A DNA stretch of 63,719 bases, counting the filler, from Catajapyx aquilonaris (lineage: Eukaryota), in NCBI GenBank assembly GCA_000934665.2. It is 2 parts of 2 records of this genome, joined end to end, with 100 filler letters (N's around TTAATTAATTAA, not from the genome) between each part and the next. Parts side by side here need not be neighbours in the genome. Positions count along the whole stretch, not along the records: positions 1 to 31,823 come from JYFJ02004486.1; 1 more part is not named here. One strand, given 5' to 3'. Position numbers and translations under genes: made by a program. Shown one piece after another: positions 1 through 40,402 of the stretch. The number at the start of each line of letters is the position of its first letter. Position 1 is the stretch's first letter. The notes below the pieces were generated by a model. The model saw nothing but the letters and a program-made list of their open reading frames with translations. It made no database searches and had not been told where the DNA came from.

Positions 1-1156
1 GGTAGGCTTTGTGGTTGTGTGGTACCTTCGCTTCAGGGTTGTCTGAGGTTGGTAGGAGCACTATGAGAGCGGGATGGTGGGGACCAAAATGAAAGTGCGT
101 TCTTCCTAGCTCCGGCCATCAAGCCAACTGTCATTTATTCCTCTGTAGCAGCCACGCTCACGCTACAATTCCAAAATTGCAGCCACACTATTGGTCAAAA
201 CAATCCCAGTTAGCGTTTACTCATTCCAGCAGCAGACCCTTTTTTTTCTTCTCTCAGCCGCCGACCAAAATGACCATTGCTCCCTTTCTCTGATTGCGCT
301 GCAGTATCAGAGCCTCTGTTACCAGCAACCTCCTCTCCTTGACAAGACTGGCTGCTTGTGCCCGGCAACTGTTCCCTTATTGCTTGTGTCTGCTCATCCA
401 CAATCCTCTCCGGTTTATCTTCCAGTTGGTCTTCAACATTGTCGTTGACATCTGCTCCTTGACCATCCGAATCTTCAGAAGTATTCAAGATCATGTTACG
501 CAATGTTTCGGAGATCCTTTTCATCTCCTTTTCCGTCAAAATGAATGATGTGGTTAATCTGCAAAGAAAAGGCAACTCAATTATGCTGTTCGTGTCTATC
601 AAGTCGTTATAGGCGTACTTGTGCACTGTTCCTTGATATTTGTAGCAGGATTGTAGACTGTCTGGCCTGCCTGGCAGATATAATAGCTGTCTGAAAAGTA
701 CAAGGTAATTTTGAGGTTTAACACCACTTACAGTATAATACAGGGACTCTCCAATACATAAGTTAGCCTGCAGTGCAAGATCTGAGTTGACAAATGTGTA
801 TGCCAAGTAGAATATGTGCATCCAACTGCCCTTAGCTAGCACAACAACTTCTCAGAGCTAGCTGATGGATGGGCATCATAAACACAATAAGACTGAGTTT
901 TCAGTATTGCAGAGGTTCACAGTTTTCTTGGACAAATTCACTCACCACGCAACTGCGGGAGAAGCTTTTCCTGCAGAGCTATGTTCAGGAGCTTCTGATT
1001 TTGCTCTTCCTTTTATTGCAGTTGTATGTGCAATGACTTATTCTCTTTCTTAAGATTTGCAACTTCCTCTTGCAGCAAAGTGATGCTGGTCACTGGTGGC
1101 AGCATCAGTTCAGTAGCATCTTCAAGTTGCTGCTGTTCTGCATCAGACCTCTTTCG
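1..1156 (-). repeat. Left arm of long inverted duplication (partner 12672-14730); probably extends beyond window start
   Basis: Reverse complement of 1-1156 aligns to 12672-12989 + 13900-14730 (e.g. ggtaggcttt at 1 = rc of aaagcctacc at 14721-14730). ORFs 210..842(-) and 14054..14596(+) encode near-identical peptides. Confidence 0.95.
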
Positions 1157-1376
1157 GGCAGCTGTGAAAGTGGCCCCAGGGAAGTGACCACCTTTAGGTT
1201 TCCCACTAATTGTAAGTTGCCCCTTAGGCCGGTTTCACACGAGCGTTTTCTGTGCGGTGCGGTCGCCGTCCGGTTATTTTCCGCAGAGTCTCAGCATAGG
1301 ACACACACGAGACCTTNCCCCCCCCCCCCCCAAAGCGCATCCTAGAATGCACTGGAATGTGTCGAACATAGCTGTG

Positions 1377-3049
1377 ATGGACCCGGACGCCGAAAGTTTC
1401 ATTTCGGAGGTGCAGAAGCGGCCAGGCCTATATGTTTCGACGTCGGAGTATTGCAACAGGACGACTAAGCAAGCACTATGGGAGGAGGTCTGTGGACAGC
1501 TCATCCCCAACTGGACCGACATGGACCAAAAAGAAAAGGACAAATCTGGTGAGCCAAACTGTTTATTTGTGACGTGCTGTAGGGGGGCACAAGGTTTGTG
1601 TCTAGGCAAAATGATGAAATCTGACATCACTACACAGGCGCGTACATAATATAACATAGTCTTTCACATGAAAGCGTACAAAAACAAACCAGCAGCTCCC
1701 ACGGATCGGGTCATAGACAACAACAAGAGAGCTGGAATTTAAACAGTCAGCAAACTATGTATGATGGGGGAAAAGTTAATTGTGCATGGGGGCAGGGCAA
1801 ATGCGAACCAAATTACCGGTTGATTTGGTCCATCTGCCATGAGACTTCACCGCGAGGAGAAAGGAAGTAGTCAGCAAAATAATCCCTCACATCCAGTCCA
1901 ACAGATTCTGGTCTTGTGCACCTACTCGGAATTGCATGCAATTCGAAAAATTGGTCTGCTGATAAAACTGGTTTGCTACTGCAAGCCAGTCGGCTTCCGT
2001 CTTGAATCCGATCACTGCATCAGCCATAACGTCCCAAATTGCATCACAGGTGTGTTCCACGATGCCAGATATCGTGGACACGCCCAGCAGGTAGTCGAAA
2101 TGCAGGTTATTCCAGTCGCCAGGAATCTGTAAAATGTTGTAGTTAGAGAGGTTTACGTCACGGATTAGTGTAGTTCATGTAAGACAGAATATTTCGGTAT
2201 TGCGTAACATTGCATGAAGCTGGTGCCACCTGCATGTTGTTGCTAATTATAACAATGTGATATTCTGTTTGCAGTGAGTCAAGCGCAGAAGCGCTGGAGG
2301 AATCTGAGGGACGCTTTCAAGAAAGCCCTTAGGCAAGAGACCAACATCCCCTCTGGAAGTGGTAGGAAGAACAAGAAGCAGTACGTTTATTTTAACCAGC
2401 TCTCCTTCCTTGAAAGCACCACGACATCGCGAAGGTATGTGGTATTGCCTCTCTCCTGATGTGCACAACTTTACCTATGCCATACTAACTTGCGTTGTGT
2501 GATTGTAGGACCTTGGGGTGCCCGCCTGCACTCGCTCAGGCTGACGTTACGATCACGGAAGGAGAGGATGTTACGGAGGAGGACGGTGATAGTGAAGGCG
2601 CTGCGGATGATGGGGATGACGACGTACATGGGAGCGATGGTGGTGCCCTTTCCCCTGATCAAGTACGAGCAAGCAGTACAGCTGGACCTGGCAGTGGCCG
2701 CCCAAAAGGCCGAAGACCGAAGAAGCAGAAAGTTACTACTTTTGAATCGAGGATGCTGCACCTTCTTCGGGAGAAGAATACTCCTGAACCCAGCGCAGAC
2801 AAATCCTTTCTGATGTCCCTTCTCCCAACCCTAGCAAGTCTCCCCGAAAATCAAAAATTTGCCGCAAGAAGAGCCCTCATGGACGCCCTGGAGAGATTCA
2901 CAATGAATCCACCTCCCGCATCCGCACCACCCCCATTACCATACCACAGCAATACTACCCATATATGTATGTACCCGACCGAACCCAACCAATACCCAAC
3001 CTATCACTATGCGATCCCTCCAGCCGATACACCTTCAGGCCCCCACTGA
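1377..3049 (+). CDS. Harbinger accessory MADF (Myb/SANT-like) + BESS-like protein, 3 exons (1377-1548, 2275-2434, 2509-3049), ~290 aa, frame intact
   Basis: FISEVQKRPGLY..KQALWEEV / AQKRWRNLRDAFKK..YVYFNQLSFL (MADF); DKSFLMSLLPTLASLP (BESS-like); GT-AG introns with compatible phases. Confidence 0.88.
1813..2128 (-). pseudogene. Harbinger transposase exon remnant (DDE core deleted) inside MADF intron 1
   Basis: Minus strand: acceptor then FLATG..HFDYLLGVSTISGIVEHTCDAIW..TNFSNC, then jumps to the C-terminus VRDYFADYFLSPRGEVSWQMDQINR*. Confidence 0.85.
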
Positions 3050-3117
3050 TATTTTGTTGATATTATTGTGCATCAGGGTAATAAAAAGCTGAGTAATAAT
3101 TATGTGGTAATCATATC

Positions 3118-3180
3118 ACTGCGAGCCTTTCTTCGGGGGGTACAGCTCGACGCATGTTGGTGTCTTGGAATGTGATAGAG
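3118..3180 (-). pseudogene. Harbinger transposase N-terminal exon remnant
   Basis: Minus strand reads SITFQDTNMRRAVPPEERLAV, the motif that precedes RFLATG in HARBI1-like transposases. Confidence 0.8.
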
Positions 3181-3755
3181 GGTCGCAATCGCACAGAAAA
3201 CGCTCGTGTGTAACCGGCCTTAAAATGCACAAAATAATGGCACAATATACACTACTTTGAAACACTGATTGCTATTTTTAAATTTGATAAATAAATGAGC
3301 GCGCATCAGGACGTTGCAAAAACCTTCATGGAAATTAGGTGTGACACATATATGGCCAGGCATAATGAAGCACCTGCAACTCAGGAAAGTAATGGTAGTT
3401 TTGAATTTACATACCAACTTGTTAGGCGGTGATTGCACAAAAACCTTATATTTTTTTAATGCTCATGCAAACGCTCTTGCACCGCTTCATATGGATGTAT
3501 ATAGGCCTATTACCCCTATGTAAATTATAAAGATGTTGAGTGAATGGAAAAATGGTATGTGATGGCATTTTAAAATTATTTCTCTCGGATTCAGCACCGG
3601 GCAACATATCGAAGTGGCACTTTTTGGAATTTTCAAACATTTTTTCCATTGCATCAGGCCTGTAATAGTGCTGTACATATTTAAAACACAGGCATTTCAT
3701 GCTTCACATGTACTGTACAACACACCCCTGGCCATAGAAATTCTGCTGGGAATTG

Positions 3756-3929
3756 GTGTGAGGACACGACGAAAAATCCGACCAGGAGCAACACACTTAC
3801 ATAGCGGCCCCGGAGCCGCCCCCAAACCACAGTTCGCCCTTGGTCACACTCGACACCATTGAAACGCATTGCAGTTGTGTGAGGACACGGCGGAAAATCC
3901 TACCTAGAGCAACGCACTTACATAGCGGC
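3756..3929. repeat. Two imperfect ~53-bp direct repeats, 121-bp spacing
   Basis: gtgtgaggacacg..aaaatcc..gagcaac.cacttacatagcggc at 3756-3808 and 3877-3929. Confidence 0.8.
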
Positions 3930-4389
3930 ACCTATATTTTGCCAAACATCGATGAATGATAAATGATAGAAATATTTATTTTTTTAAATGTCTGGTGGTA
4001 ATGGGAGAAAGTGTTCAATTTCCTGACATGTTTTCCTCGGAAATGTCAGGGGGGAGGGGGGGTTCCCCCTACATTTCCACAGGTCAAGTAGCTGCTACTT
4101 ATTGGCAAGTGCAAATGGCGACCTCTATTGATTTTTCAAACGTATTGATCACTATCTTGCATATTATAGCTGCTGAGTGCAGTAATTGGAATTTGTCCAC
4201 TTCAGATGGTTGTAAAAGCAATTTTTTAATTATACTTGCAAGAAGTTATGAGCTGTAGTGTTGCATTGCAGAGTAGGATATGAATAAGAAAGTGTGGAAA
4301 GTTACATATTGCAATCTAATTGACATTCTTTTTATAATGAACCTTCATGCATTCCAGAATCTCCCTCTAGCATACATGTGCACCATGAA

Positions 4390-4552
4390 GCTGGAGAAAA
4401 GCATGTGCCAATTTCACTGGGAGAAATTTTGGCTTTTGCCACAGGGGCTGAGGAGGAGCCACTGCTGGGGTTCGATCCACAACCCAGCCTCGTGATTGAG
4501 CCAAGAGCCTCGGAGAAAGACACAGCGGCCTTGCCTTTCGGAAATACCTGTC
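4390..4552 (+). pseudogene. HECT E3 ligase C-lobe fragment (G2E3-like)
   Basis: SLGEILAFATGAEEEPLLGFDPQPSL..LPFGNTC, including the catalytic-Cys NTC motif. Confidence 0.7.
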
Positions 4553-5948
4553 AGTCTGCACCAAAAAAGGAAACGGAAAGCGAGTCTGGGACAAGAATCA
4601 CGTCTGTTTCTATTGTGAAAAAAAAAGTGAAAATCTCTCGCCATATCATCTCAATGCATTCAGAGGAGCTTGATGTTGCAGCGGCAAAGGCAAAAAAAAA
4701 AAAGGAAGTAAAGCGCGAAAGAATGCTTTAGAAAAATTGACAAGATTGGGTGACTTTTACCACAACCAATCCGTGCTGACCTCTAACTCGGGCTCACTGA
4801 TACTTTTGCGAAGGCCTACCGAGGAGGGAACGCATAAATTTATGCAAAAGCATAAAGGATTTGGGGCCATGCCCATATTGCTTGGGATTTGTTACAAAAA
4901 CCGACTTGTGGCGCCATGGGAAAAGATGCCCCTTTAACACTAAGGGCAAGGAGGAGGATGATGATGGCGGAAAAAGGGGAGAAAAGAGCATTCAGATGCA
5001 GAGCCTGCTGCTCATGTTCCCCTTTACATCTGATGCCATGAGGCAGACGTTCGACAAAAGTATTCTGGCCACAATGAGGGATGATGGAATAACAAAAGTT
5101 GCCTGCAGGGACACGACTATTGTGTCCTTGGGATTCTTCTTATTTCAGAGATACGGGGAGAAGCAAAAGCAACTTATCTCTCAAACTATGCGGCAACTGG
5201 CACGCCTGCTCTCTGATTTACGTTCAAATGCAAGCATTGACAATGCCAAGAATAAAATTAATTCAAGTGACCGGCAAACGAGGGAGAACTGTGCCAATCC
5301 TGCTGACAGCAGAAGCCGCAGAAGCTGTCCAGTGGCTAATGAAGAGGAGGCAAGAAGTTGGGGGTGGCCAATCCTTTTGTATTTGCTCGAGTACATGGAA
5401 ATTCAATGCAATCACTTCGTGGCCACGATTGCCTAAAAGCAGGACTCGAACATCAGCTCCGATGAGGACAAAGGTGAGTGTTTCGTGCATTCCATAGTGA
5501 AGTGGATCATGCGATCTATTTCTTAGGTGAAAAGTTGCCCTTTGCTCGGTTTGACGCATTTTGTCCCACCTTTCAGGCAAAGGAAAACGGAGCAGAGCCC
5601 AACACAAAGTCTCTGGAAAGACACGTAAGCCCACTGGAATACTTTTACTGCCCACTGTTAAAATGTGTTTTGGCATAAAAGTTTCAGAAATCCAACAGGA
5701 TGAGTTAAATTTAAGAGTTATTCTTTACTTTGTTTCTTGCAGGTGTGAAAAGGCAAGGCTGGGATCCGAAAGAAAAAGCAAAAGTTTTGCACTTCTTCAA
5801 AATACCTATAAGAAAAGGGTGTGTACCCAGAAAAGAAGTATGTGAAAAATGCATCTCCACCCATTCCATTACTCGCACATGGAAAGACATTAAGAATTGT
5901 GTGCACAATGAAATAGACCGTAGAAAAGGGAAGAGAAATGGTATTTGA
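4553..5948 (+). pseudogene. Degenerate metazoan tyrosine-recombinase-like protein (PTHR33480-type), frameshifted and deleted
   Basis: HVCFYC..KISRHI..H, GDFYHN, PCPYCLGF..LWRH..C, ISQTMRQLARLL, GKRGRTVPILL, LRGHDCL, and C-terminal W..KEK..V..FF..VPRK..C..RTWKDIKNCVHN; recognised from memory of the family. Confidence 0.6.
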
Positions 5949-5963
5949 GCCATTAGTTAGTGG

Positions 5964-6099
5964 TAGAGAGTCTTAAAGGAGAGAGTCGCCAACCTGTTAT
6001 GTAAGGTCGTCTCTGATTCGTTTGAGTAATACATTACTCCAGCGAATCAGAGACGACCTTACATAACAAGTTGGCGACTCTCTCCTTTAAGACTCTCTA
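5964..6099. mobile_element. 136-bp palindromic MITE, hAT-like (TAG..CTA ends, 8-bp TSD)
   Basis: Nearly perfect foldback tagagagtcttaaagg..cctttaagactctcta; TSD gttagtgg at 5956-5963 and 6100-6107. Confidence 0.92.
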
Positions 6100-6856
6100 G
6101 TTAGTGGGCACTATTTCCATCAGTTATGCTGGTGCTCCTCCTGCCTTCCCCACGTTCTCATCTCCTCACCCCCCTCCCTTCCCACCCCCCCCCCTCCTGC
6201 ATACCGCTAGCTATCTGACTGAAGCTGCGATTGCATTTCATACAAATACTAATATTATTTATTCCCCTGGCTGCCAAGGCTCAATACGAAAGAGCCATAC
6301 AAGCCAGGCATTTCCCTGAACACCAACCAACCAACCAACCAACCCAACTTTCAAATCTGCGGGGAGCTCGTAGGAAGTAGGGAGCTCATTCTGCCACCAG
6401 CTAGCAGCAGCCAGCAGCAGCTTCACCCACGATTTTATTTTACATTTTAAAATGTCTTTTGCGGTACAATCTCTCATGGTGGAAGTCAATGATGGTACTA
6501 GTAGGCCTTGGCCCCACCAGGTTGTTGTCATGCCAGGCGATGGTTCGTGTCTGTTCCATTCCATTTCTTATTCCATCTATGGGAACACTGACTCCTCGCA
6601 GGAGGTCAGGTCAGCAATTGTCAAGTATGTGGCTGACAAAGTCTATACTTGCGATGAGCGTGGTATGACCTACTCCAGCCGAGAGACCTACACCCAAGCC
6701 ATGTCTTGCACGTCCACGTATGGCTCTGTTTCTGAGCTGATGGCGGCAGGTGATATCTTTCCCTTCACCTTTGAGGTGTATGAAAATTGTCAGCTGAGGG
6801 GGCGTTTTCAGGGAAGTACCGGATGTCCCGTGAAACGTTTGCGTTTTACAGGAAGT

Positions 6857-6857
<1 letters not shown>

Positions 6858-6916
<59 letters not shown>

Positions 6917-7011
6917 TTTATTCCCATTCACCCCTTAGGGTACTTGAGGGAAGACTTCCCTTGATACACGTTTACAATCACTCATTAATGCTGCCCTTAC
7001 TTACAAGATTA
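6858..7011 (-). mobile_element. 5'-truncated non-LTR retroelement 3' end with (ATT)n tail and 14-bp TSD
   Basis: TSD ttttacaggaagtt at 6844-6857 and 7012-7025; AATAAA then (ATT)n on the minus strand; removal restores the OTU frame RFTGSCLSGHYDVL. Confidence 0.88.
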
Positions 7012-8559
7012 TTTTACAGGAAGTTGCCTATCCGGTCATTATGATGTCTTGGTCCCTCTAAACGATCCCTCTACTGAACCAGTACATGGTGCTCATGGTT
7101 CTCCAAGTCAACCTAGTTTTACAAACAGTGTTTGCAATGACGACAGTGTCAAGAAAAGGGGTAGGCCACTTAAGAACAGAAGGGGCAGGCCTAAGACGTC
7201 ACGAGTTCACGTTCTCAACAACTCCAAGCAGCTTCAGCCCGTTATCGTCAAAAACGCCCAGAACAGCGCCGAGAGGCAGTAGCACGCTATACTGCTTCAC
7301 ACCCGGACGTTCACCGGCAGGCTGTGCGCAGGAAAAGGTCAAACAATAAACTACACTTTAAAGGTAATGTCGAAAGAATTGTCAGAAAGGCTTCAGAAAT
7401 AACAGGGGACCGGTTGGAAGCCGAAAAACTTATTAAGTGGGTTCTACACCGTAGACAGCTTACCTTAGGGAACCTCCGCAAAACAGTGGAGCGTTTGAAA
7501 GGAATACTTACTCTGGGGCTAGAGAGACTCAGCGTCTGCCCTACAGGCGCCAACATTACCGAGCGATATGAGGCATTACTGGGAAAATATGAACATCGGG
7601 ACAATCAGGAGTCATTTCATTGGGAACAGACCTACAAGGTGCATGAATCTAAAGACACACCTATTCAAATTGATGGGAGTGGTACAGCCATCTTTGTTGA
7701 TGTTCAAAAACATTACTAAGGTATGGTATGGTCTTGTCATTCTTTGTGTGCGCTAGATGAGCCTTCATTGTTGAGATTGAAGGACATTTTCCTCGAATTG
7801 GAGAGCAATACACCGGCACAACTTTTCTCGATGTCGACAGAAACGAAGCAACTACATGATCGCATTACCTTAGTCGCGGGAAATGGGCTTTGAGAGAATT
7901 GACAAAGGACAATTGTACGACGCTTGTACCTTATACAGAGCGAATGCGAGTCAGTCAGGTCATTGGATCAGGCCTTGGAAAATGGGGACGTCGAGAAGAT
8001 GAAAGACCTGGGGAAGCAGCCAAAAGAACCAAGTGCAGGTGTCTCTGTCGAAATGGAAGATGCGGGTGAAATGGATGACATCATCGATAAACACATTTCC
8101 GCATTTAAATTGTTCAGCAAAAAAAAGATCTCGACACACCCCGACTTGAATGCATTTCTTGCCATAAACTTTGTTCTTCTAGAGATGTTTCCACCATAGG
8201 ACGGCTGAGAAAATCCATATCCACGGATGTCTGGGATCGGCTTCTTCATTATCACCATTCAAATAATATTACTCAAGAGTCCTTTTATATGTCATTCCTG
8301 CCTTCACAAAATTCGAGCTAATGAACTGCCTCCTACTTGCGTACTCAACGACCTATATGTCGGAGAAGTCCCGTCGACAATAAGTCAGCTTAACGACTAT
8401 GAGAGGCTTTTGATTCAGCGTGCTAAAGCATTTCAATTCGTTACATCTATGGTTCCAGTAGCTAACAAACGCATACCTAATCTCCCATTGCCCCTGGCTG
8501 AAACGCTAAGAAAGCTACCCAAACCACAAGATCCCATAAAACGATTGTGTGTTTACAGC

Positions 8560-8778
8560 AAAGTAGGATCTCGACAGAGGACTTCCTGTAACAACGTAGC
8601 TGAAGTTGAACTGACTTAGTTAAATGATTCAGGCCCACTAACCATTAGCAAAGCGAAGAAAGAGGACCTTTTCAGACTTTGCAGGTCACGAACGATTCCC
8701 ACTACATACCACAGCTTTTATGAGAATCTTAAAGTAAGCCATGCAAGGGATGAAACAACCGATGACAGCGATGACTAA
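8560..8778 (+). pseudogene. C-terminal fragment of a Sola1-like transposase, sitting where the Helentron Rep domain was
   Basis: PLTISKAKKEDLFRLC..IPTTYHSFYENL..acidic tail, stop, AATAAA. Confidence 0.55.
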
Positions 8779-11774
8779 CGCTAGTGCAATAAATATCAAT
8801 TGATGAAAAAGATTATTTATTTATTCATTCCAACCCTCCTGTCCTTTGTACTACGCAGTGTAAGTACTCCAACAGTGTAACAACACAGATGTGGTGGTGG
8901 CGGTGAACTAAGGTAAGTGTATAAATCAATTAATTATTGTATCAATAAGACTTCATTTCAGGTACCGCTGAACTGGTAGTCTTTATAGCTGTGCCTGTCA
9001 TGCAAATCCGTCAAAAAAAAACGAACAATATCTACTATCCTTGTTGCCAAAAGCTATAATTAAGATCTGCAATATTTTCCAATTGCTCTCCTGGAAAAGT
9101 TGTAAAATTGAGTTGCCATAATTCACTCCCAAGGGGACGATTGTTACTAAGTACACGACAAAGAGTGAGAAAACGCACGCTATGGACACCTTCAATGACA
9201 TCAACTCGACTAAGTCTTTGAGAAGTCGGTTGTACAACATCGGCCTGCGGGTTTTGGGGAACAGAGAATGTGGGGCTCCGGAAGCCAGTGACACTCTCTT
9301 GGGCATCCCGTTACATGGCACCGATCCTCACACTACAATTAGGTGGCTGGATGTCATTCATCTGGGCTCTGGATTTGACCCTTCGGTTCCGGTGGATGTT
9401 ATGCTCGATCCCACCTCCACAGACATATACTATGAGTCCTGGATCGACAACCACTACCCCGCCAGGCCTAAGGATTTGGAACTTGTTAATCTGTACAATT
9501 TTATGAAGGATTACGATATCGTAACAACACGACCCGCTTCAACAACTGCCCAATTCTATGTTCTAGAAGACGGGGAAAAGTTTCTCAGGAAGAGGGACAG
9601 GCCATACCTCATAAACCACTACCATTACGATGTCGAACAAGTGCCAGAAAAGTACTTTTTCGCACTCCTTTTGATGTTCAAACCATGGCGGGACATCCAG
9701 GAACTCAAAATGGGGTTCCAAACTTACACGGAAGCATTTCATTCCGCCCTGGATCAATTAAGGGATGGCCTTCACTACGGAAACCTTCGCACAGAATTGT
9801 TCAACAATCTTCAGCTAGCTTTCGAAAAGGTGCAGGCCAAAGTGGCTGAGCTCAATGAAGTAGGTCAGGATAATGTGGAGGAAGGTGATGGTCCTGACAA
9901 TCCTATCCAGTTCGACCCCTTGGAAGCAGTCAGTGCCATGGAGGATTTACTTCGGATGGACTGTGCGGAACAACTCAAATCCTACGAGGATCTTCAGGGT
10001 CTCATACAAAATTTAAATGTTGACCAGAAAAGGGTCTTCGACATGGTCAGCAGAACAATGGAAAATTATACTACTCGCAATCTCATTTTGCGTTGCTTTG
10101 TTAGTGGCACTGGCGGCACAGGGAAGAGTTTCTTAATAAAAACTATCAAAGCTTGGGTCCAGCTGCATTTGAACAAAAAGGTGGCAGTGAGTGCACCCAC
10201 TGGCATCGCGGCGTACAATGTCAATGGTTTAACCATTCACAGATTGCTACAGTTGCCAGTCGAACACAAGCGCACGCCCACATATAAGTCTCTTTCTGAC
10301 GAAGTTCTCAAACTTCTCAGGTCTGACTTGAAAGATGTTGTCCTACTTATTATCGATGAGGTGTCCATGATTTCCAACGTCACGTTGGCCTACATCCATC
10401 TTCGACTGTCCGAAATCTTTGACACAAGTGACCACGAGGATGGGTGGTTCGGAAAAATTAACATTCTTGTCCTAGGGGATCTCTTGCAGTTACCCCCTGT
10501 CAGAGAAAATTCTCCTTTCGAATCCATGTCTGCTTCAGAGGTCAACAAGTTACTAGGATCGCTTAGTGTCCCAAATCTATGGAGGGAATTGTTCACCTAT
10601 GACGAGCTCACATGAGGCAGCAAAATGATTCCACTTTTGTCGACATTTTAAACAGAGTCAGAGTAGGCGTCACAACACAAACGGACCGTCAAGTTCTCTC
10701 CAAAAGATTGATTCCGCTGCATTCAGATTCCAACGAGGGCAGACTTCATGAAATCTGTCAATGCCTATCCAAACTACCACAGGACACTGTTTGCTTGCTG
10801 CCAACTCGAAACATGTGTGACCAGTTAAACAACGCCATGCTCAAAGCCATTCCTCGTCCCGAGATCAGACTTATAGCAACTGATACTGTCGATTGTCCGT
10901 GGTTCCTCTCGAAAAGAGCCCGGGAAGCCCTAAAATCACATCAGGAAGACTCTTCTATGACAGCTGGGTTAGAAGCAACCCTACTTATAAAGGAAGGAGT
11001 CAGGGTAATGCTGAAGAGGAACATTGATGTCAGTTTGGGTCTGGTTAATGGTTCCATAGGGACTGTAGTGCAAGTGAGATGGGATCCGGACGACATCAGG
11101 AAGACTAGAAGTCTAGCTATAAAATTTAATAATGGCCTAGTGCATGAACAAGGGAGAGTGACATCAAAATTCGAGGTCATCGATAGAGCCTATGTGTACA
11201 GGGAACAATTCCCAATTTGTGTGGGGTATGCCATTACCATACACAAGAGTCAAGGCATGAGTCTGACTAATGCACTAATCGATATTGGTTCCTCTGTCTT
11301 CTCGTGCGGTCAAGCCTACGTGGCTCTTTCCAGAGTTAAAAGTCTCAACGGAGTGCATCTCATCAATGCCTCCTTTACTAACATCAAGGCTCAAGAGTCA
11401 GCTATTCTGGAGTACGATAGATTGAGATCTGTTTACCGACCAGACTTATCCATACTCAAAAGAGCTAATAAGGCATCGACAGAAGTGGTTAAGGATCGCG
11501 AATGGGCTATGCGACCAGGTGTAGCAGATGTCCAATTCGCACAACCAGGACAGAAAAAAAAGAAGCGTACTATGAGAAAGCAGAAGAAAATCACACCTAA
11601 CCAGAGGAAAAGATAGAGTTTCACATACTTTCGTAATAACCTACACATTTTGCTCCAAGTTATTCATTACCTTATTTGGAATATTTAACGGACCATTGCT
11701 TCCACGCCCAACCGTAGGGGGCTCCCCGAGCTTTCTTATTATCCTACACCCCTGCCTACAAAAAGAGGTGAGAT

Positions 11775-12264
11775 CCCACCAAAAACCTTTCTGTAAAAAA
11801 AGGCCAAGTTCTCCTGACTGCTTGGCCGTAAAAAGTGGTGAGATCTGAAATACGGCCAAGTTCAACGTCGTAGTCAATTACTGGCATTCTCAACTTCTTC
11901 AACCTAAACCACTAACTTTATTTTTCCAGGTCGACCTTAGGTTTAATCATCAAAAAAATTTTATGTCATTTCTCCGGATGTCACTTGGCCATTGCTCATT
12001 CCGAGGTATTGTTGAATTCTACAACTCTTTCAAAGTTTTAAGAGCAATGGCTAAGTGACATCAGGAGAAATGGCATTAAATTTTTTCGATGATTAAACTT
12101 AAGGTCGACCTGGAAAAACAAAGTTAGTGGTTTAGGTTGAAGAAGTTGAGAATGCCAGTAATTGACTACGACGTTGAACTTGGCCGTATTTCAGATCTCA
12201 CCACTTTTTACGGCCAAGCAGTCAGGAGAACTTGGCCTTTTTTTACAGAAAGGTTTTTGGTGGG
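11775..12264. mobile_element. Foldback MITE with ~223-bp TIRs, CCCA..TGGG ends, AT flanks
   Basis: 11775-11997 is the near-perfect rc of 12042-12264, with a 44-bp spacer; AT on both sides (possible 2-bp TSD). Confidence 0.9.
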
Positions 12265-12671
12265 ATAACTGTATTCCTTTTGTCTACATTCAGCGAACGG
12301 CAGCAGCTAATAATGCATCAACGGCAACTGCTGCTTCATCCACTCCTGATGTGCAAGAGTTGTCTGCTGATAACCATCATCTACTTGCATCGCCATCACC
12401 TGAGGATGACACAGCTCCAGAAGTACGAACTGCTGGTAAACTATGTAAATAACTCTACATTTTCCATTTCGCTTGGTTAATTTGTGCTTTTGTAAGAAAA
12501 TAATGCATACCGTATATGATGACTGGACCCATAAGTGGCCACTCCTCATTTTATTTTACACAGCAGTATGTGCATTTCTATGCTGTCCTGTAGCACAAAA
12601 ATAATTAATTATTTGCCTTGTTGTGCTATCTTATTCAGGAACCTGTTAGCAGTGATGAATGTTCAGCAGTA

Positions 12672-14730
12672 CGAAAGAGGTCTGATGCAGAACAGCAGCA
12701 ACTTGAAGATGCTACTGAACTGATGCTGCCACCAGTGACCAGCATCACTTTGCTGCAAGAGGAAGTTGCAAAGAGAATAAGTCATTGCACATACAACTGC
12801 AATAAAAGGAAGAGCAAAATCAGAAGCTCCTGAACATAGCTCTGCAGGAAAAGCTTCTCCCGCAGTTGCGTGGTGAGTTTTCAGTATTACAGAGGTTCAC
12901 AGTTTTCTTGGACAAATTCAGTCTTATTGTGTTTATGATGCCCATCCATCAGCTAGCTCTGAAAAGTTGTTGTGCTAGCTAAGGGCAGTGTGGTTGCTGG
13001 TCTATGGGCAGGGAGGCTAAGAAGGCGCCGGTCTCCCACTTCTGCAGGTGGGGTCCCATCTGAGTTCAAATCCTGCTTCACACAAAGTTTGCTATGTGCG
13101 TGTACCTGTATATAGGGTTGCAGGGAGTTCTCTCTATAGCTACCATACTTGCATGGGTTTTCTATGCTGGGTTCTCCTGTTTCCTCCCACATGCAGAAAC
13201 TCATCATCATCAGCGGTGACAATAATGAATGAGTTGTAGCGTGATTAAGCAAATCTCCTAAAACAGCATAGTCATATATGGTATTAGATATGTATATAAG
13301 GGGGCTTACCCGGCATAGCCATCTACAGCCCCCGGCTCCATCAACATCTAATCACCGAATAGTGACAACATCATAAACAAACAAGAAGAGCCAAACAAAC
13401 CTGGATAAACCCGAAAACCGAAAACCCCCAAGGCGCGACCACAAAAGCAACCACCAAAACGCGCAGAGACGCATACAATTTAGAGCGAAACCCTTCACCA
13501 CCTCAGATTTAGAGAACCAAGAGAACCAAGAGACCAAGAGAACCAAACCCGAGAGAGGGGGACCAAGAGAACCAAACCAGTGCACATTAAAACTCCTCCG
13601 GCGACGGAGCTCGCCGTACGGTGACACACCATATTCATCCATTGATCCCCTGGAGCCAAGCATCAGCCGCCAAACAAAGAGAATTGAAGCTCCTCAGAAG
13701 AGATCCCATGAGCATCCTTGGAGAAGGGGGCCAGCCAGCACCGCTCCGCAATCAAGCACAGTATTATTATATATCTTGTGATGTCAATGAGCCCTCACAA
13801 GAGGATTATATTCCAAGCCAAGACAGCCAGCAAAATATGCGAGGAGTCTTGCTGAGGAAGTTTTGGGCCAGAAGGCCATCCTGGCAAGCAAGCTGAATGA
13901 GTTGGATGCACATATTCTACTTGGCATACACATTTGTCAACTCAGATCTTGCACTGCAGGCTAACTTACACAGTATAATACAGGGACTCTCCAATATATA
14001 TAAGTGGTGTTAAACCTCAAAAGTACCTTGTACTTTTCAGACAGCTATTATATATGCCAGGCAGGCCAGACAGTCTACAATCCTGCTACAAATATCAAAA
14101 TTCAGTGGTTAGACGGCAAAGGAACAGTGTACAAGTAGCCTACGCCTATAACGACTTGATAGACACGAACAGCATAATTGATGTGGTTAATCTGCAAAGA
14201 AAAGGCAACTCATTCATTTTGACGGAAAAGGAGATGAAAAGGATCTCCGAAGCATTGCGTAACATGATCTTGGATACTTCTGAAGATTCGGATGGTCAAG
14301 GAGCAGATGTCAACGACAATGTTGAAGACCAACTGGAAGATAAACCGGAGAGGATTGTGGATGAGCAGACACAAGCAATAAGGGAACAGTTGCCGGGCAC
14401 AAGCAGCCAGTCTTGTCAAGGAGAGGAGGTTGCTGGTAACAGAGGCTCTGATACTGCTGCAATGGTCATTTTGGCGGCTGAGAGAAGAAAAAAAGGGTCT
14501 GCTGGAATGAGTATTGGTCAAAACAATCCCAGTTTGCGTTTAGTGTGGCTGCAATTTTGGAATTGTAGCGTGGGCGTAGCTGCTAGAGAGGAATAAATGA
14601 CAGTTGGCTTGATGGCCGGAGCTAGGAAGAACTCACTTTCATTTTGGTCCCCACCATCCCGCTCTCATAGTGCTCCTACCAACCTCAGACAACCCTGAAG
14701 CGAAGGTACCACACAACCACAAAGCCTACC
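12672..14730 (+). repeat. Right arm of long inverted duplication; carries exon-like pieces of an unidentified gene and ~910 bp absent from the left arm
   Basis: See 1-1156. Splice-like signals at ~12639 (ttcag|), ~12873 (|gtgagt) and 14040 (ttttcag|). Confidence 0.93.
12995..13250 (+). mobile_element. tRNA-derived SINE (V-domain-like core)
   Basis: B-box-like gagttcaaatcc (~13062) followed by tgggttttct..gggttctcctgtttcctcccaca, a motif of V-type SINE cores. Confidence 0.6.
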
Positions 14731-14820
14731 CGAAACAACAACAAGCAACCTTTCCAAAAGAATTAGCCTAACCAGCCATTCAAACCCAACCCTGAAACAT
14801 ACCCCACCAAGAAATCCTGC

Positions 14821-15528
14821 GGATTCTGTGGTAAAGAGATGCATCCCCGCAAGAACTGTCCAGCAGTGCAGGCAACAACTGCTCCAAGCTGGGCCACTAC
14901 GCAGCAGTATGCAGGTCACGCAACGTGCACGAGACAGTCCAACAAGTGGGTGCAGCAGGTGGGGAAGAGGAGTCATACTTCTTGGGTGCGGTGGAGCGGA
15001 CATCTGGGGAAGAGTGCAACCCCAGTCCTCCATGGATGGTCGCAGTACAGGTCAACGGAAAGCCTCTCCGGTTCAAGATGGACACTGGAGCAGACGTAAC
15101 AGTAATTATTCCCGATTGCTGTGTTCCTGAGGGGGTGGAACTGCGAAGCTCCAACGAGTCACTGAGAGGCCCAGGCAATCCAGGTGGTTCCATGCAGCGG
15201 ATGGTTCATGGCAACAATGGGGATCAACAATCATGAGGCCAGCATCAAGGTATATGCGTCGCCAGCGGTGCAGGTTCCACTGTTGGGAAGACCAGCGCTG
15301 GAGCAGCTGGACATGGTGAGGAGGCTATGCGAGATAGGACGCAGCTACGCGGGAGACGTGTGGGCAGCATATCCTGATCTCCTGAAACCGCTGGGGACCT
15401 TCTCAGAAGCATACCACATCACATTGGAGAAAGGCGCAGAACCATATGCAGTCAGCGTGGCACGGAGGGTGCCCTACCCGATGTTCGAGGAAGTACAACG
15501 AGAACTGGAGCGGATGGTTCAGCTTGGA
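14821..15528 (+). pseudogene. Gypsy/Ty3 gag-pol fragment (zinc knuckles, aspartic protease, start of RT region)
   Basis: FCGKEMHPRKNC, NCSKLGHYAAVC, FKMDTGADVTVI, PLLGRPAL, ARRVPYP..VQRELERMVQLG. Confidence 0.9.
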
Positions 15529-15951
15529 AAGTGAGATGACTTGGCCGGACTTGGTTCACGGGCACGAGGAACAATACGAATTCAGTTCGCTGGAATTTGA
15601 TCAAGTTACTGTTCTCCCAATAAGCTGTACGACTTTCAAGTGTAATTAACCGCGATTGTAATCATGTGCGGTTCGAAGATGACATTTTGTAGTTCCTGTC
15701 ATACGAATCAGAGGTCAAAGTATATTTATAATTATTCTAATGAATCAAGGAACTGTATTTGTAATTTGAAGGTGAGTTGTTACGTTACTGCTCCACCATT
15801 GACAGTTAAAAGTAAATATTCCATTCGAATGTCACATTTTTGGATAATGGCTCTACCAATGAGTGTTAAAAGTTTACTTTCTATTGTATTAAACCACGCA
15901 TGGCATTGTTCCTCGTGCCCGTGAACCAAGTCCGGCCAAGTCATCTCACTT
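15529..15951. mobile_element. Non-autonomous TIR element, 47-bp perfect TIRs, no clear TSD
   Basis: aagtgagatgacttggccggacttggttcacgggcacgaggaacaat (15529-15575) = rc of 15905-15951. Confidence 0.88.
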
Positions 15952-37900: not shown

Positions 37901-39480
37901 TGTGAATTGTATTTCACAAAACAACGTAAAGAGATTTGTAGATAACATGTGTTCGACATCCGGTTGGAGTGATGTACGCCACAAGTGTCTCATCCATTTT
38001 TTGAGGGGCGGGGAGGGAATGAGGGAGGGGGGGAGGGTTGTCACTGTATCTTTTTAATGGATGACGTGACAGTGTGGAGAGTGACGTCGGCATGGACGCG
38101 TGGAATGCCGGGCTAATTAATTAATGGTGGTGTAGGACAGAGTCTTGCTGAGTCCATCACTCACGAATCAATTAGCATATATCCGCTTGCACGGACAGGT
38201 GTATCATCGATTAGTTACTCCGCAGATTTTAAAGTCGTCAGACAGGTGTGGAGCTAAGCCTGATGAGCTTTAAATAACCTAACCTAACCTGACGTTATCC
38301 GGACAAAGTATCGTTAGGGCAAGCATTACATTACAAATATTTGATATTGTTTCAGCGTTTGAAGCCATAAATATTGCAAACAGCAGTCACACCCAGCCAA
38401 CTGCAGGTGCGTAACACTGACCAAAACAAGTTCTGGACTAAAATATTCAAACACTATAGCATGTCACATGTTGTTTTGTGTAGGACACAATAGTGTAAAC
38501 CAAACTGCCACTTTCATCACAGTTCAGGTATGGTACATTAGATAATATTTATACCTCAGCTGGTTGTTGACAGAAGGAGTTCACTTTATATAAGTTATAG
38601 AAAAGCTTGTCTGAAATTATTATATGAAACACCCTGTTTAGGAACTGAAGAGATAGCCGAAAAGCTTTTCTCTCCACAGTCTGAGCCGTTTTGTTCCTTA
38701 ATGTTTAACCCATTGGTTCCCGGAGAATCCGGAGCCTCCCATCTTTTTTGCGAATCCTCAAGTGTCGACAGGGGTTCGGAGCCAGCTGCGTCCAGCACTT
38801 GACTTGTGCCAACCAGACCCCGAAATCTAATTTTCCTGATTGGAATGGACCCTCGAAAATGTGCCCCAGCTTTAGTACGCACCGTCTTGGAAGGAATAAA
38901 ACCTCGTTTGAGCCTCCATCAAGCCAGACCCTTCAAACTCAAACACGAGATTCTATCCGGGAGAGAAGCCCAAAACCGGTCGTGTGCTGGGGGAGGGGGA
39001 AGGGGGGGGGAGGTGGGGGAAGGAGGAGAAAAGGGGGCCATAAGTTAGGCGCTAACTGTATCATTTGACATTTACGACCCGAGCAAGAAATCGAATTCAT
39101 GGGCCAGGCTCAAAATATTATCTGATCTGCGGGAGGAAAGGAAACTATTCGCACACCTTCCAAACGACTATCTCGATGCCGCTGGAGGGCCCTTTCTGAT
39201 GGACCCCGCGGACTTGTACTTACTTTTTTTTCGTTCCCTCCTTCCCTTTTGCTCCTTTTTTTATCGACTTGGTGCTATATATTTTATCTTACACCTATAG
39301 TTGGTGTTACTCGATAAAAGGATCTGTTGCTTGATCGGTTTCGGCTCGTGTCGCGATAATTTTTACTGCGGTTTGTTCCTAATAATAGTGTGGATAGCGA
39401 AAGAGTGAAACTTTATTTATCAATAACCCAGCAGGATTTCGCGAATATAATTTTGTTTAAATTTCATATATCCACATCTA

Positions 39481-40402
39481 GTCCGGGCCCTAAGCGCAAA
39501 AATCAGGCCTAACCTTGCATTTTGGGATAAGAATCGCCACTTGGCACATATGTTCCCTAGGCCTATAGGAGCAATTCCAGAGTTGCAGACAACTGATCGA
39601 CCCCTTAGGTCACGAGTTATGCGGTGTTGCCAAAATGGCCTGGGATGACCTGAGCGTTTTTAACGTCGCATTTTGTGATAAGAAGGTACCGCTTGGCACA
39701 TATGTTCCCTAGGTCTGTAGGAGTCGTTTGAGACATGGCGGCACTTGATCTGCTCCTTAGGTCAGGAGTTATGCGGTGTTGCCAACCTGGTTCTGGACCT
39801 AAGCGTTTTGAACCATTTTTAACTTTGCATTTTGGGATAAGAAGGTGCCACTTGGTACATATGTTTCTTAGGCCTATAAGAGCAATTTCAGAGTTGCAGG
39901 CAACTGATCGACCCCTTAGGTCACGAGTTCTGCGGTGTTGCCAACCTGATCAGGGAACTAAGCCTTTTAACTCGGCACTTTGTGATAAGAAGGTGCCACT
40001 TGGCAGACATGTTCCCTAGGTCTATAGGATCCATTTGAGAGATGGCGGCACGTAATCGGCTCCTTAGGTGAGGCGTTATGCGGTGTTGCCAACATGGTCC
40101 GGGACCTAATCATAACCGCATAACTCGTGACCTAAGGAGCCGATCAAGTGCCGCCATGTCTCAAACGACTCCTACAGACCTAGGGAACATATGTGCCAAG
40201 CGGTACCTTCTTATCACAAAATGCGACGTTAAAAACGCTCATGTCATCCCAGGCCATGTTGGCAACACCGCATAACTCGTGACCTAAGGGGCCGATTAGT
40301 TGCCTGCAACTCTGGAATTGCTCCTATAGGCCTAGGGAACATATGTGCCAAGTGGAACCTTCTTATCACAAAATGCAAGGTTAAGACGCTTAGGGCCCGG
40401 AC
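39481..40402. mobile_element. Foldback element built of ~150-bp tandem units (about 4 forward, 2 inverted), TA flanks
   Basis: Ends gtccgggccctaagcg / cgcttagggcccggac with TA on both sides; repeated core gataagaaggt.cc.cttggcacatatgttccctagg..ttaggtca.gagttatgcggtgttgccaa. Confidence 0.88.

What the first reader, a model, noticed from the sequence alone, without database searches (positions are those of the whole stretch)
191..14540. Four 27-41 bp micro-inversions separate two otherwise near-identical copies
Seen: the arms 1-1156 and 12672-14730 are reverse complements, yet four internal blocks read the SAME way on the + strand in both. They are 191-217 = 14514-14540 (TA..TA flanks), 549-576 = 14182-14209 (TGA..TCA), 731-758 ~ 13969-14000 (ACTTA..TAAGT) and 897-937 = 12877-12917 (TGA..TCA). 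That is four inversions in ~750 bp, between copies differing by only scattered substitutions. Established: micro-inversions are normally far rarer than substitutions and are explained by template switching at short inverted repeats. Inference: a highly active, size-restricted inversion process (repair or template switching, possibly TE-targeted) acts here. This is my best candidate for an undescribed system.
Basis: partly seen in the sequence, partly recalled or inferred. Interest (0 to 1): 0.9.

Follow-up and report, generated by a model that had tools for sequence, protein, structure and literature searches.

The report
Clustered micro-inversions in duplicated retroelement DNA
Two inverted copies of a dead retroelement fragment in an arthropod genome really do differ by four tiny, precisely flipped 27-41 base segments within 750 bases, a density far above anything reported, which most likely records a local burst of DNA-copying strand switches and not a dedicated inversion system.

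Summary
Arm A (1-1156) and arm B (12672-14730, reverse complement) match at 980 of 991 aligned collinear bases. Four blocks (27, 28, 28/32 and 41 bp) are flipped in place, and 121 of 124 aligned block bases match. The blocks abut inverted microhomologies of 2, 3, 5 and 3 bp (chance about 1.5e-8). They have no hairpin potential.

Independent contigs from four runs of one sample end exactly at a block edge (14541) in 4 of 4 runs. That is expected only if both orientations exist in the reads.

I found a fifth micro-inversion (9356-9400) in the Helitron between the arms. Protein homologues show it is derived in this copy.

The arms are a gag-side fragment of an LTR retroelement, cut at the same internal point in both copies. 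This points to an inverted segmental duplication.

Best reading (about 0.5): microhomology-mediated strand switching during one or a few error-prone repair or replication episodes at this locus.

A genome-wide or TE-targeted hyperactive process is not shown, but it is not excluded. Polarity of the four events could not be determined.

The parts
1..1156 (-). Arm A: copy of a retroelement gag-side fragment. It runs off the left edge of the window. Homology to arm B ends sharply at 1156.
12672..14730 (+). Arm B: the second copy, in the sense orientation of the retroelement. A CCHC knuckle, an aspartyl protease and what I read by eye as the start of RT follow from 14767 on the + strand.
191..217 (.). 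Micro-inversion block 1 in arm A (27 bp, TA/TA flanks)
14514..14540 (.). Block 1 in arm B. The read contig ends exactly at 14541 in 4 of 4 runs.
549..576 (.). Block 2 in arm A (28 bp, TGA/TCA flanks, 28 of 28 identical)
14182..14209 (.). Block 2 in arm B
731..758 (.). Block 3 in arm A (28 bp, ACTTA/TAAGT flanks)
13969..14000 (.). Block 3 in arm B (32 bp, with ragged TA/TG dinucleotide ends)
897..937 (.). Block 4 in arm A (41 bp, TGA/TCA flanks, followed by a TCAC tandem duplication)
12877..12917 (.). Block 4 in arm B. The X2 contig ends at 12878.
9356..9400 (.). Fifth micro-inversion (45 bp), in the Helitron copy between the arms. The conserved residues NIHRNRRVKS... are encoded only on the minus strand here. 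Family contigs have the other orientation.
12990..13902 (.). 913-bp insertion of a multi-copy repeat, present in arm B only. The ends are approximate.

Best explanation
The arms are an inverted segmental duplication of an already 5'-truncated LTR-retroelement gag region, lying in a nest of dead transposons.

The four flipped blocks are genuine in-place micro-inversions. In each, a growing DNA strand left its template at a 2-5 bp inverted microhomology, copied 27-41 bases of the opposite strand, and returned at the matching microhomology. This is an inter-strand template switch, or equivalently a microhomology-mediated invasion during break repair.

Four independent events at normal rates are impossible. 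The cluster therefore most likely comes from one or a few episodes of low-processivity, error-prone synthesis confined to this locus. Candidates are the break-induced or fork-restart replication that made the inverted duplicate, or a later repair tract. A standing inversion machinery is not needed.

Shown: the inversions, their microhomologies, the absence of hairpins, and support from reads for at least one junction. Inferred: the strand-switch mechanism, the single-episode origin and the link to the duplication event.
For: - Precise length-preserving flips in 3 of 4 blocks, with 121 of 124 aligned block bases identical.
- Inverted microhomology of 2, 3, 5 and 3 bp directly abuts all four blocks. 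The chance value is (1/4)^13 = 1.5e-8.
- Sizes of 27-45 bp match the known short-range classes: 17-33 nt definite micro-inversions (PMC8755829) and U-turn events defined as under 50 bp (PMC4417113, passages).
- The mutation spectrum is abnormal as a whole: 4 inversions plus 9 indels against 14 substitutions. This fits a slippage- and switch-prone polymerase episode.
- Homology ends abruptly at 1156/12672, inside the element, with unrelated flanks. Depth is about 1-2 copies. Both points argue for a DNA-level duplication of a truncated copy, not two transposition events.
- All four inversions lie within about 220-965 bp of that breakpoint.
- A fifth, derived micro-inversion lies in the same 14.7-kb locus. 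The other repeat pairs in the window show none.
- The contig end at 14541 in 4 of 4 runs shows both junction types are present in the reads.
Against: - Polarity is unknown. No third copy exists at 90% likeness or better (depth), and the arm ORF has no protein homologue. So it is not shown that the derived states sit on one copy or arose together.
- Some indels look like ordinary slippage on both copies: a TAGGC duplication and the 913-bp insertion in B, and a TCAC duplication in A. Not all differences come from one episode.
- The Helitron inversion has no flanking inverted repeat (only 1 base of overlap). It may have a different origin, and could hint at a wider process.
- The left continuation of arm A is outside the window, so clustering near the breakpoint cannot be tested.
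- The read data come from one sample, probably the assembly's own source.
Confidence: 0.5

Rival explanations
1. A persistently elevated short-range strand-switch rate, either genome-wide in this arthropod or specific to transposon-rich, late-replicating heterochromatin. Micro-inversions would accumulate independently at a rate near that of substitutions.
For: - Five micro-inversions occur in 14.7 kb, in two unrelated elements: the retroelement arms and the Helitron.
- The Helitron copy differs from its family contig by only about 1% yet carries one inversion (records 6 and 30).
- The window is a nest of dead Harbinger, Helitron, piggyBac, MULE and LTR fragments.
Against: - About 4.8 kb of Helitron and 0.9 kb of Harbinger were compared with read contigs. 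Only one strand-changing joint appeared there, against four in 1.1 kb of the arms.
- The other repeat pairs of the window show none.
- A word search of this scan's notes on the same genome (604 windows at the time) returned no other micro-inversion note. This is weak evidence, because notes need both copies in one window.
- A rate near the substitution rate should have been noticed in arthropod mutation studies (my own knowledge, not searched).
Confidence: 0.22
2. Assembly or consensus artefact: the blocks are flipped only in the assembled sequence.
For: - The assembly is an older short-read type draft with single N and 44/99-N gaps.
- The window's own orientation of the Helitron block, and of arm blocks 2-4, was not directly seen in read contigs because the tables were truncated.
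- One X4 contig joins A-type block 2 to B-type downstream sequence.
Against: - A separate assembler (Logan contigs, k=31) breaks to the base at the edge of block 1 (14541) in 4 of 4 runs. The contig record itself ends there. This needs two different continuations in the reads.
- No contradicting strand-change joints were reported inside the arms, apart from the mosaic X4 contig.
- Flank repeats of 2-5 bp are far below any assembler k-mer, so graph ambiguity cannot flip the blocks.
Confidence: 0.1
3. The differences arose during reverse transcription. Reverse transcriptase jumped onto displaced or nascent DNA strands in the replication cycles that separate two retrotransposed copies.
For: - The arms lie directly upstream of a gag zinc knuckle, a protease and what I read by eye as the start of RT on the same strand.
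- Reverse transcriptases switch templates often (general knowledge).
Against: - Both copies end at the same internal point with no LTR or element terminus there. This argues for DNA-level duplication of a truncated fragment.
- The Helitron event cannot be explained this way.
- I know of no report of frequent precise in-place inversions from reverse transcription (recalled, not searched specifically).
Confidence: 0.07
4. Programmed invertible segments flipped by a site-specific recombinase, or hairpin-loop flip-flop as in organelle genomes.
For: Short inverted repeats flank the blocks.
Against: - The flank repeats differ from block to block and are only 2-5 bp.
- Segments of 27-41 bp are too short to loop for synapsis (argument in PMC8755829).
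- No hairpin potential: z-scores from -0.55 to +1.53 for 9 of 9 folded stretches.
- No recombinase gene was seen among the ORFs scanned.
Confidence: 0.01

Closest known systems
Definite micro-inversions between human and chimpanzee (Potapova, Kondrashov, Mirkin 2022, PMC8755829; abstract, Results and Discussion read)
   Same: Precise in-place reverse-complement replacement of tens of bases, mostly 'born pure'. Inverted repeats abut the boundaries. A template-switch or microhomology-mediated BIR model applies.
   Different: - There, 59 events occur in a whole genome comparison, about 1e5 times rarer than substitutions, and no clustering was noted in the sections I read. Here, 4 occur in 750 bp against 14 substitutions.
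- Here the flank repeats (2-5 bp) sit at or below the short end of their range (3-75 nt).
- The blocks here reach 41-45 bp, against 17-33 there.
Short-range template switch events, four-point model (Loytynoja and Goldman 2017, PMC5453318, listing only; Walker et al. 2021, PMC7954356, passages read)
   Same: Local strand switch within a fork that yields an inverted copy. The inversion-only case needs microhomology at both switch points.
   Different: In great apes the median copied stretch is 12 nt, and only 5.5% of events leave the length unchanged. Here all events are long, and 3 of 4 preserve length.
U-turn-like short-range inversions under replication stress in organelles (Zampini et al. 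2015, PMC4417113, passages read)
   Same: Strand reversal over less than 50 bp at short inverted microhomologies, linked to stalled forks.
   Different: Those are single U-turn junctions in rare molecules of organelle DNA. They are not fixed, completed in-place inversions in a nuclear genome.
Error-prone replicative rearrangement (FoSTeS/MMBIR, break-induced replication) that makes inverted duplications with extra small mutations near the breakpoints (named from my own knowledge; related papers seen only as listings)
   Same: An inverted duplicate, microhomology use, several template switches in one event, and mutations concentrated near a breakpoint.
   Different: Reported complexities are mostly templated insertions and long-range switches. 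A string of four exact in-place flips separated by 140-330 bp of faithful copying did not turn up in my searches.

Membership tests
In-place micro-inversion (template switch / MMBIR type) | A segment of one copy equals the reverse complement of the same-length segment at the homologous place in the other copy | tested here: met
   26/27, 28/28, 27/28 (plus 4 gap columns) and 40/41 identical
In-place micro-inversion (template switch / MMBIR type) | Inverted repeats directly abut both boundaries | tested here: met
   2, 3, 5 and 3 bp for the four arm blocks, chance 1.5e-8. Not met for the Helitron block, which has only a 1-base overlap.
In-place micro-inversion (template switch / MMBIR type) | Rare, isolated events about 1e5 times rarer than substitutions | tested here: not met
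   4 events against 14 substitutions in about 1.1 kb, compared with PMC8755829
Hairpin-loop flip-flop inversion (organelle type) | The block is the loop of a stable stem formed by the flanks | tested here: not met
   DNA folds of 9 block-plus-flank stretches gave z-scores from -0.55 to +1.53 and no flank stem
Recombinase-driven invertible switch | A conserved recombination-site pair, a recombinase gene nearby, and both orientations present at one locus | tested here: not met
   The flanks differ between blocks. No recombinase appeared among the scanned ORFs. No within-locus orientation mix was reported (truncated tables).
Single complex replicative event (MMBIR / BIR-like burst) | All derived states lie on one copy and arose together next to a rearrangement breakpoint | not testable with these tools
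   No outgroup is available: 0 protein homologues, about 2 copies by depth, no genome held. Breakpoint proximity is seen, but the arm is cut by the window edge.
LTR retroelement (identity of the arms) | gag with a CCHC knuckle, followed by aspartyl protease and RT on the same strand | tested here: inconclusive
   The knuckle motif was read in ORF 14767-15099. Protease Pfam hits had E-values of 4e-5 to 3e-4, and only RVP passed its cut-off. The RT start was read by eye. No LTRs lie in the window. The arm ORF itself has no family.

The most novel reading that the evidence does not exclude
In this arthropod, a short-range strand-switch pathway is far more active than usual in transposon graveyards or at long inverted repeats. 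One candidate is a microhomology-primed restart of stalled forks, with a reach of about 30-45 bases set by the single-stranded DNA exposed at the fork or D-loop. Precise micro-inversions would then accumulate at nearly the substitution rate and become a major, overlooked way in which repeat DNA diverges.
Probability: 0.15. Interest if true: 0.8.

Novelty: new variant of a known kind. Interest (0 to 1): 0.5.

Why it matters
Precise micro-inversions are thought to be about 100,000 times rarer than point substitutions. A verified string of four (five in the locus) beside a duplication breakpoint would be a natural record of repeated strand switching in a single repair or replication tract.

It would show that such tracts can flip short segments without losing a base. 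It would also give a size estimate (about 30-45 bases) for the reach of the switch.

If the excess instead proved general for repeat-rich DNA in this lineage, alignment-based divergence and age estimates of transposons would be biased there. It would also point to an unusual fork-restart or end-joining biology.

Tried and rejected
- **Own genome:** not held, so no genome-wide count was possible.
- **RNA:** no RNA holder was listed among the sequencing runs.
- **Outgroup for polarity:**
  - Arm ORF 210-851(-) gave 0 hits in the word-indexed protein search.
  - It gave 0 of 1.84 billion representatives and no Pfam family.
  - An exact 38-base arm pattern gave 0 matches in metagenome contigs.
  - Earlier scan notes hold no look-alike stretch.
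- **Second test case outside the locus:** the piggyBac ORF search for longer homologues gave no hit at E <= 1e-8.
- **Templated origin of the small indels:** the longest nearby matches were only 6-8 bases. The 36-base and 20-base contig-only stretches in the Helitron are plain indels or variants, not hidden inversions.
- **Further homology or hidden inversions beyond the arm boundary:** none found.
- **Hairpin-loop model:** rejected.
- **tRNA-like head in the 913-bp insertion:** ARAGORN found none.
- **Ordinary rates with gene conversion erasing substitutions:** rejected on arithmetic. At 2e-13 per base per generation (PMC8755829), four events in 1.1 kb would need billions of generations.
- **Haplotype copies falsely joined as an inverted repeat:** unlikely. 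Arm-side contigs have about 1 to 1.5 times single-copy depth, not half.
- **Polarity hints from junction raggedness:** block 4 fits B as the derived copy through a return jump onto the second TCAC unit. These hints are too weak to use.
Full report
**Observation**

Self-comparison of the window shows that 1-827 and 818-1156 match 14730-13900 and 12997-12672 in reverse complement. A word-based, inversion-aware scan finds four places where the two arms instead read alike on the same strand.
- A191-217 = B14514-14540
- A549-576 = B14182-14209
- A731-758 ~ B13969-14000
- A897-937 = B12877-12917

Inside the blocks, 121 of 124 aligned bases match. In the collinear parts, 980 of 991 do.

The flanks next to the blocks are inverted microhomologies of 2, 3, 5 and 3 bases. 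With random breakpoints this has a probability of (1/4)^13, about 1.5e-8.

There are nine gap events:
- 1, 3, 4, 4, 10 and 19 bases extra in A;
- 5, 22 and 913 bases extra in B.

Structural changes (13) are therefore about as many as substitutions (14).

**Is it real DNA?**

No genome is held for this window. Four DNA runs of one sample hold the stretch. They are kept as contigs built by a different assembler. I laid them on 1-15000.

- A 1570-base contig has its physical end at 14541 in 4 of 4 runs. That is the first base outside block 1.
- If the two arms were collinear there, the shared path would continue to the next difference at 14535. An end at 14541 therefore needs two different continuations in the reads, as an inversion predicts.
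- A contig end at 12878 in one run fits the edge of block 4, but also fits the neighbouring 4-base indel.
- One contig of X4 carries block 2 in the A orientation, but then continues in B-type sequence. I read this as a mosaic made by bubble popping.
- Block 3 could not be seen, because the tables were cut.
- Depth of arm-side contigs is about 1 to 1.5 times that of single-copy contigs. The arms are therefore two true copies, not collapsed haplotypes or a large family.

The sample is probably the assembly's own source. This check rules out an assembler artefact for block 1 only, and is otherwise partial.

**What the arms are**

On the + strand, arm B is followed by an ORF with a CCHC knuckle, an aspartyl protease and what I read by eye as the start of RT. 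Pfam matched only the protease: E-values were 4e-5 to 3e-4, and only RVP reached its cut-off. The arms are therefore the gag side of an LTR-type retroelement.

An ORF of 213 codons (A) or 205 codons (B) runs through blocks 2 and 3. It has no Pfam family, no hit in the word-indexed database and none among 1.84 billion representatives.

Homology stops abruptly at 1156/12672, with unrelated DNA beyond and no element terminus. Two copies cut at the same internal point argue for an inverted segmental duplication of a truncated fragment, and against two retrotranspositions.

Between the arms lie a Harbinger-like element (MADF, BESS) and a Helitron (OTU, PIF1). Beyond them lie more Helitron, Harbinger, piggyBac and MULE remains. 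Earlier notes of this scan call the genome an arthropod. The Helitron's best protein matches are lepidopteran.

**A fifth micro-inversion**

One search reported strand-changing joints at 9355/9356 and 9400/9401 in all four runs, in contigs at five to ten times single-copy depth. The Helitron family at large therefore carries this 45-base block in the opposite orientation.

- Homologous proteins read ...LDVNIHRNRRVKSKSEM... at this place.
- The window encodes NIHRNRRVKSRAQM only on the minus strand, at 9409-9329 (tblastn E = 0.001).
- The copy in this locus therefore carries the derived state.
- This block has no flanking inverted repeat.
- The window's own orientation here was not seen in read contigs.

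**Mechanism**

The blocks are not loops of hairpins. Nine folded block-plus-flank stretches give z-scores from -0.55 to +1.53. The small indels are not copies of nearby sequence.

Site-specific recombination is excluded for three reasons:
- the flanks are tiny and differ from block to block;
- the segments are too short to loop for synapsis (argument in PMC8755829);
- no recombinase was found among the scanned ORFs.

What fits is the known inter-strand template switch, or its break-repair variant. The growing 3' end pairs through the left microhomology with the right microhomology on the other strand, copies back across the block, and returns.

Known benchmarks:
- 59 definite micro-inversions of 17-33 nt between human and chimpanzee, about 1e5 times rarer than substitutions, with flank repeats of 3-75 nt (PMC8755829).
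- 4017 short template-switch events across great apes, with a median copied length of 12 and 5.5% length-neutral (PMC7954356).
- U-turn junctions defined as under 50 bp and linked to replication stress (PMC4417113).

Against these rates, four independent events in 1.1 kb are not credible, even if gene conversion had erased substitutions.

The cluster needs a clustered cause. I favour one or a few episodes of low-processivity, switch-prone synthesis at this locus. The most economical candidate is the replicative event that made the inverted duplicate, because all four blocks lie within 1 kb of its breakpoint. This link is inference.

A persistently raised rate in repeat-rich DNA, or in this species, remains possible. 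The Helitron event speaks a little for it. On the other side:
- In the 15 kb laid, the only other strand-changing joints were the Helitron one and the mosaic X4 contig at block 2.
- The other repeat pairs of the window show none.
- A word search of the scan's notes on this genome found no similar case.

**What stays open**

The polarity of the four events could not be set, because no third copy or homologue exists in the reachable data. The continuation of arm A lies outside the window. My literature searches brought up no report of several exact in-place micro-inversions within one kilobase. I did not read supplements.

**Verdict**

The interpretation as an undescribed, TE-targeted inversion system is not supported. 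It is best filed as an exceptional cluster of a known mutation type, and is worth a genome-wide follow-up.

Noticed in passing
window 9356-9400: A 45-bp in-place inversion in the Helitron copy, relative to its multi-copy family and to protein homologues. It has no flanking inverted repeat. A GGATGT direct repeat sits at both block ends.
   Followed up: yes
window 15529-15575 and 15905-15951: A perfect 47-bp inverted repeat about 330 bp apart, exactly where the retroelement pol reading frame stops. It looks like a small foldback or MITE insertion.
   Followed up: no
window 11001-12500: Summed contig depth of 3,000-30,000, against 20-35 for single-copy DNA. This is a very high-copy repeat directly beside arm B.
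   Followed up: no
window 12990-13902: A 913-bp insertion present only in arm B, at roughly 20 times single-copy depth. ARAGORN finds no tRNA-like part.
   Followed up: partly
window 39478-40394: A complex array of roughly 150-300-bp units in both direct and inverted orientation (70-96% identity).
   Followed up: no
window 6849-6929: A long run of Asn codons inside the OTU-protease ORF of the Helitron. Read contigs appear cut there.
   Followed up: no
window 616-655 vs 14100-14145: The 5-bp and 22-bp extras in arm B add up to 27 bp. The 1-, 3-, 4- and 19-bp extras in arm A (218-300) also add up to 27 bp. The long arm ORF therefore stays open in both copies. This could be coincidence or past selection on an unrecognised gag ORF.
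   Followed up: no
window 8481 and 10609: The Helitron copy lacks 36 bp and 7 bp that are present in the family contigs of all four runs.
   Followed up: partly
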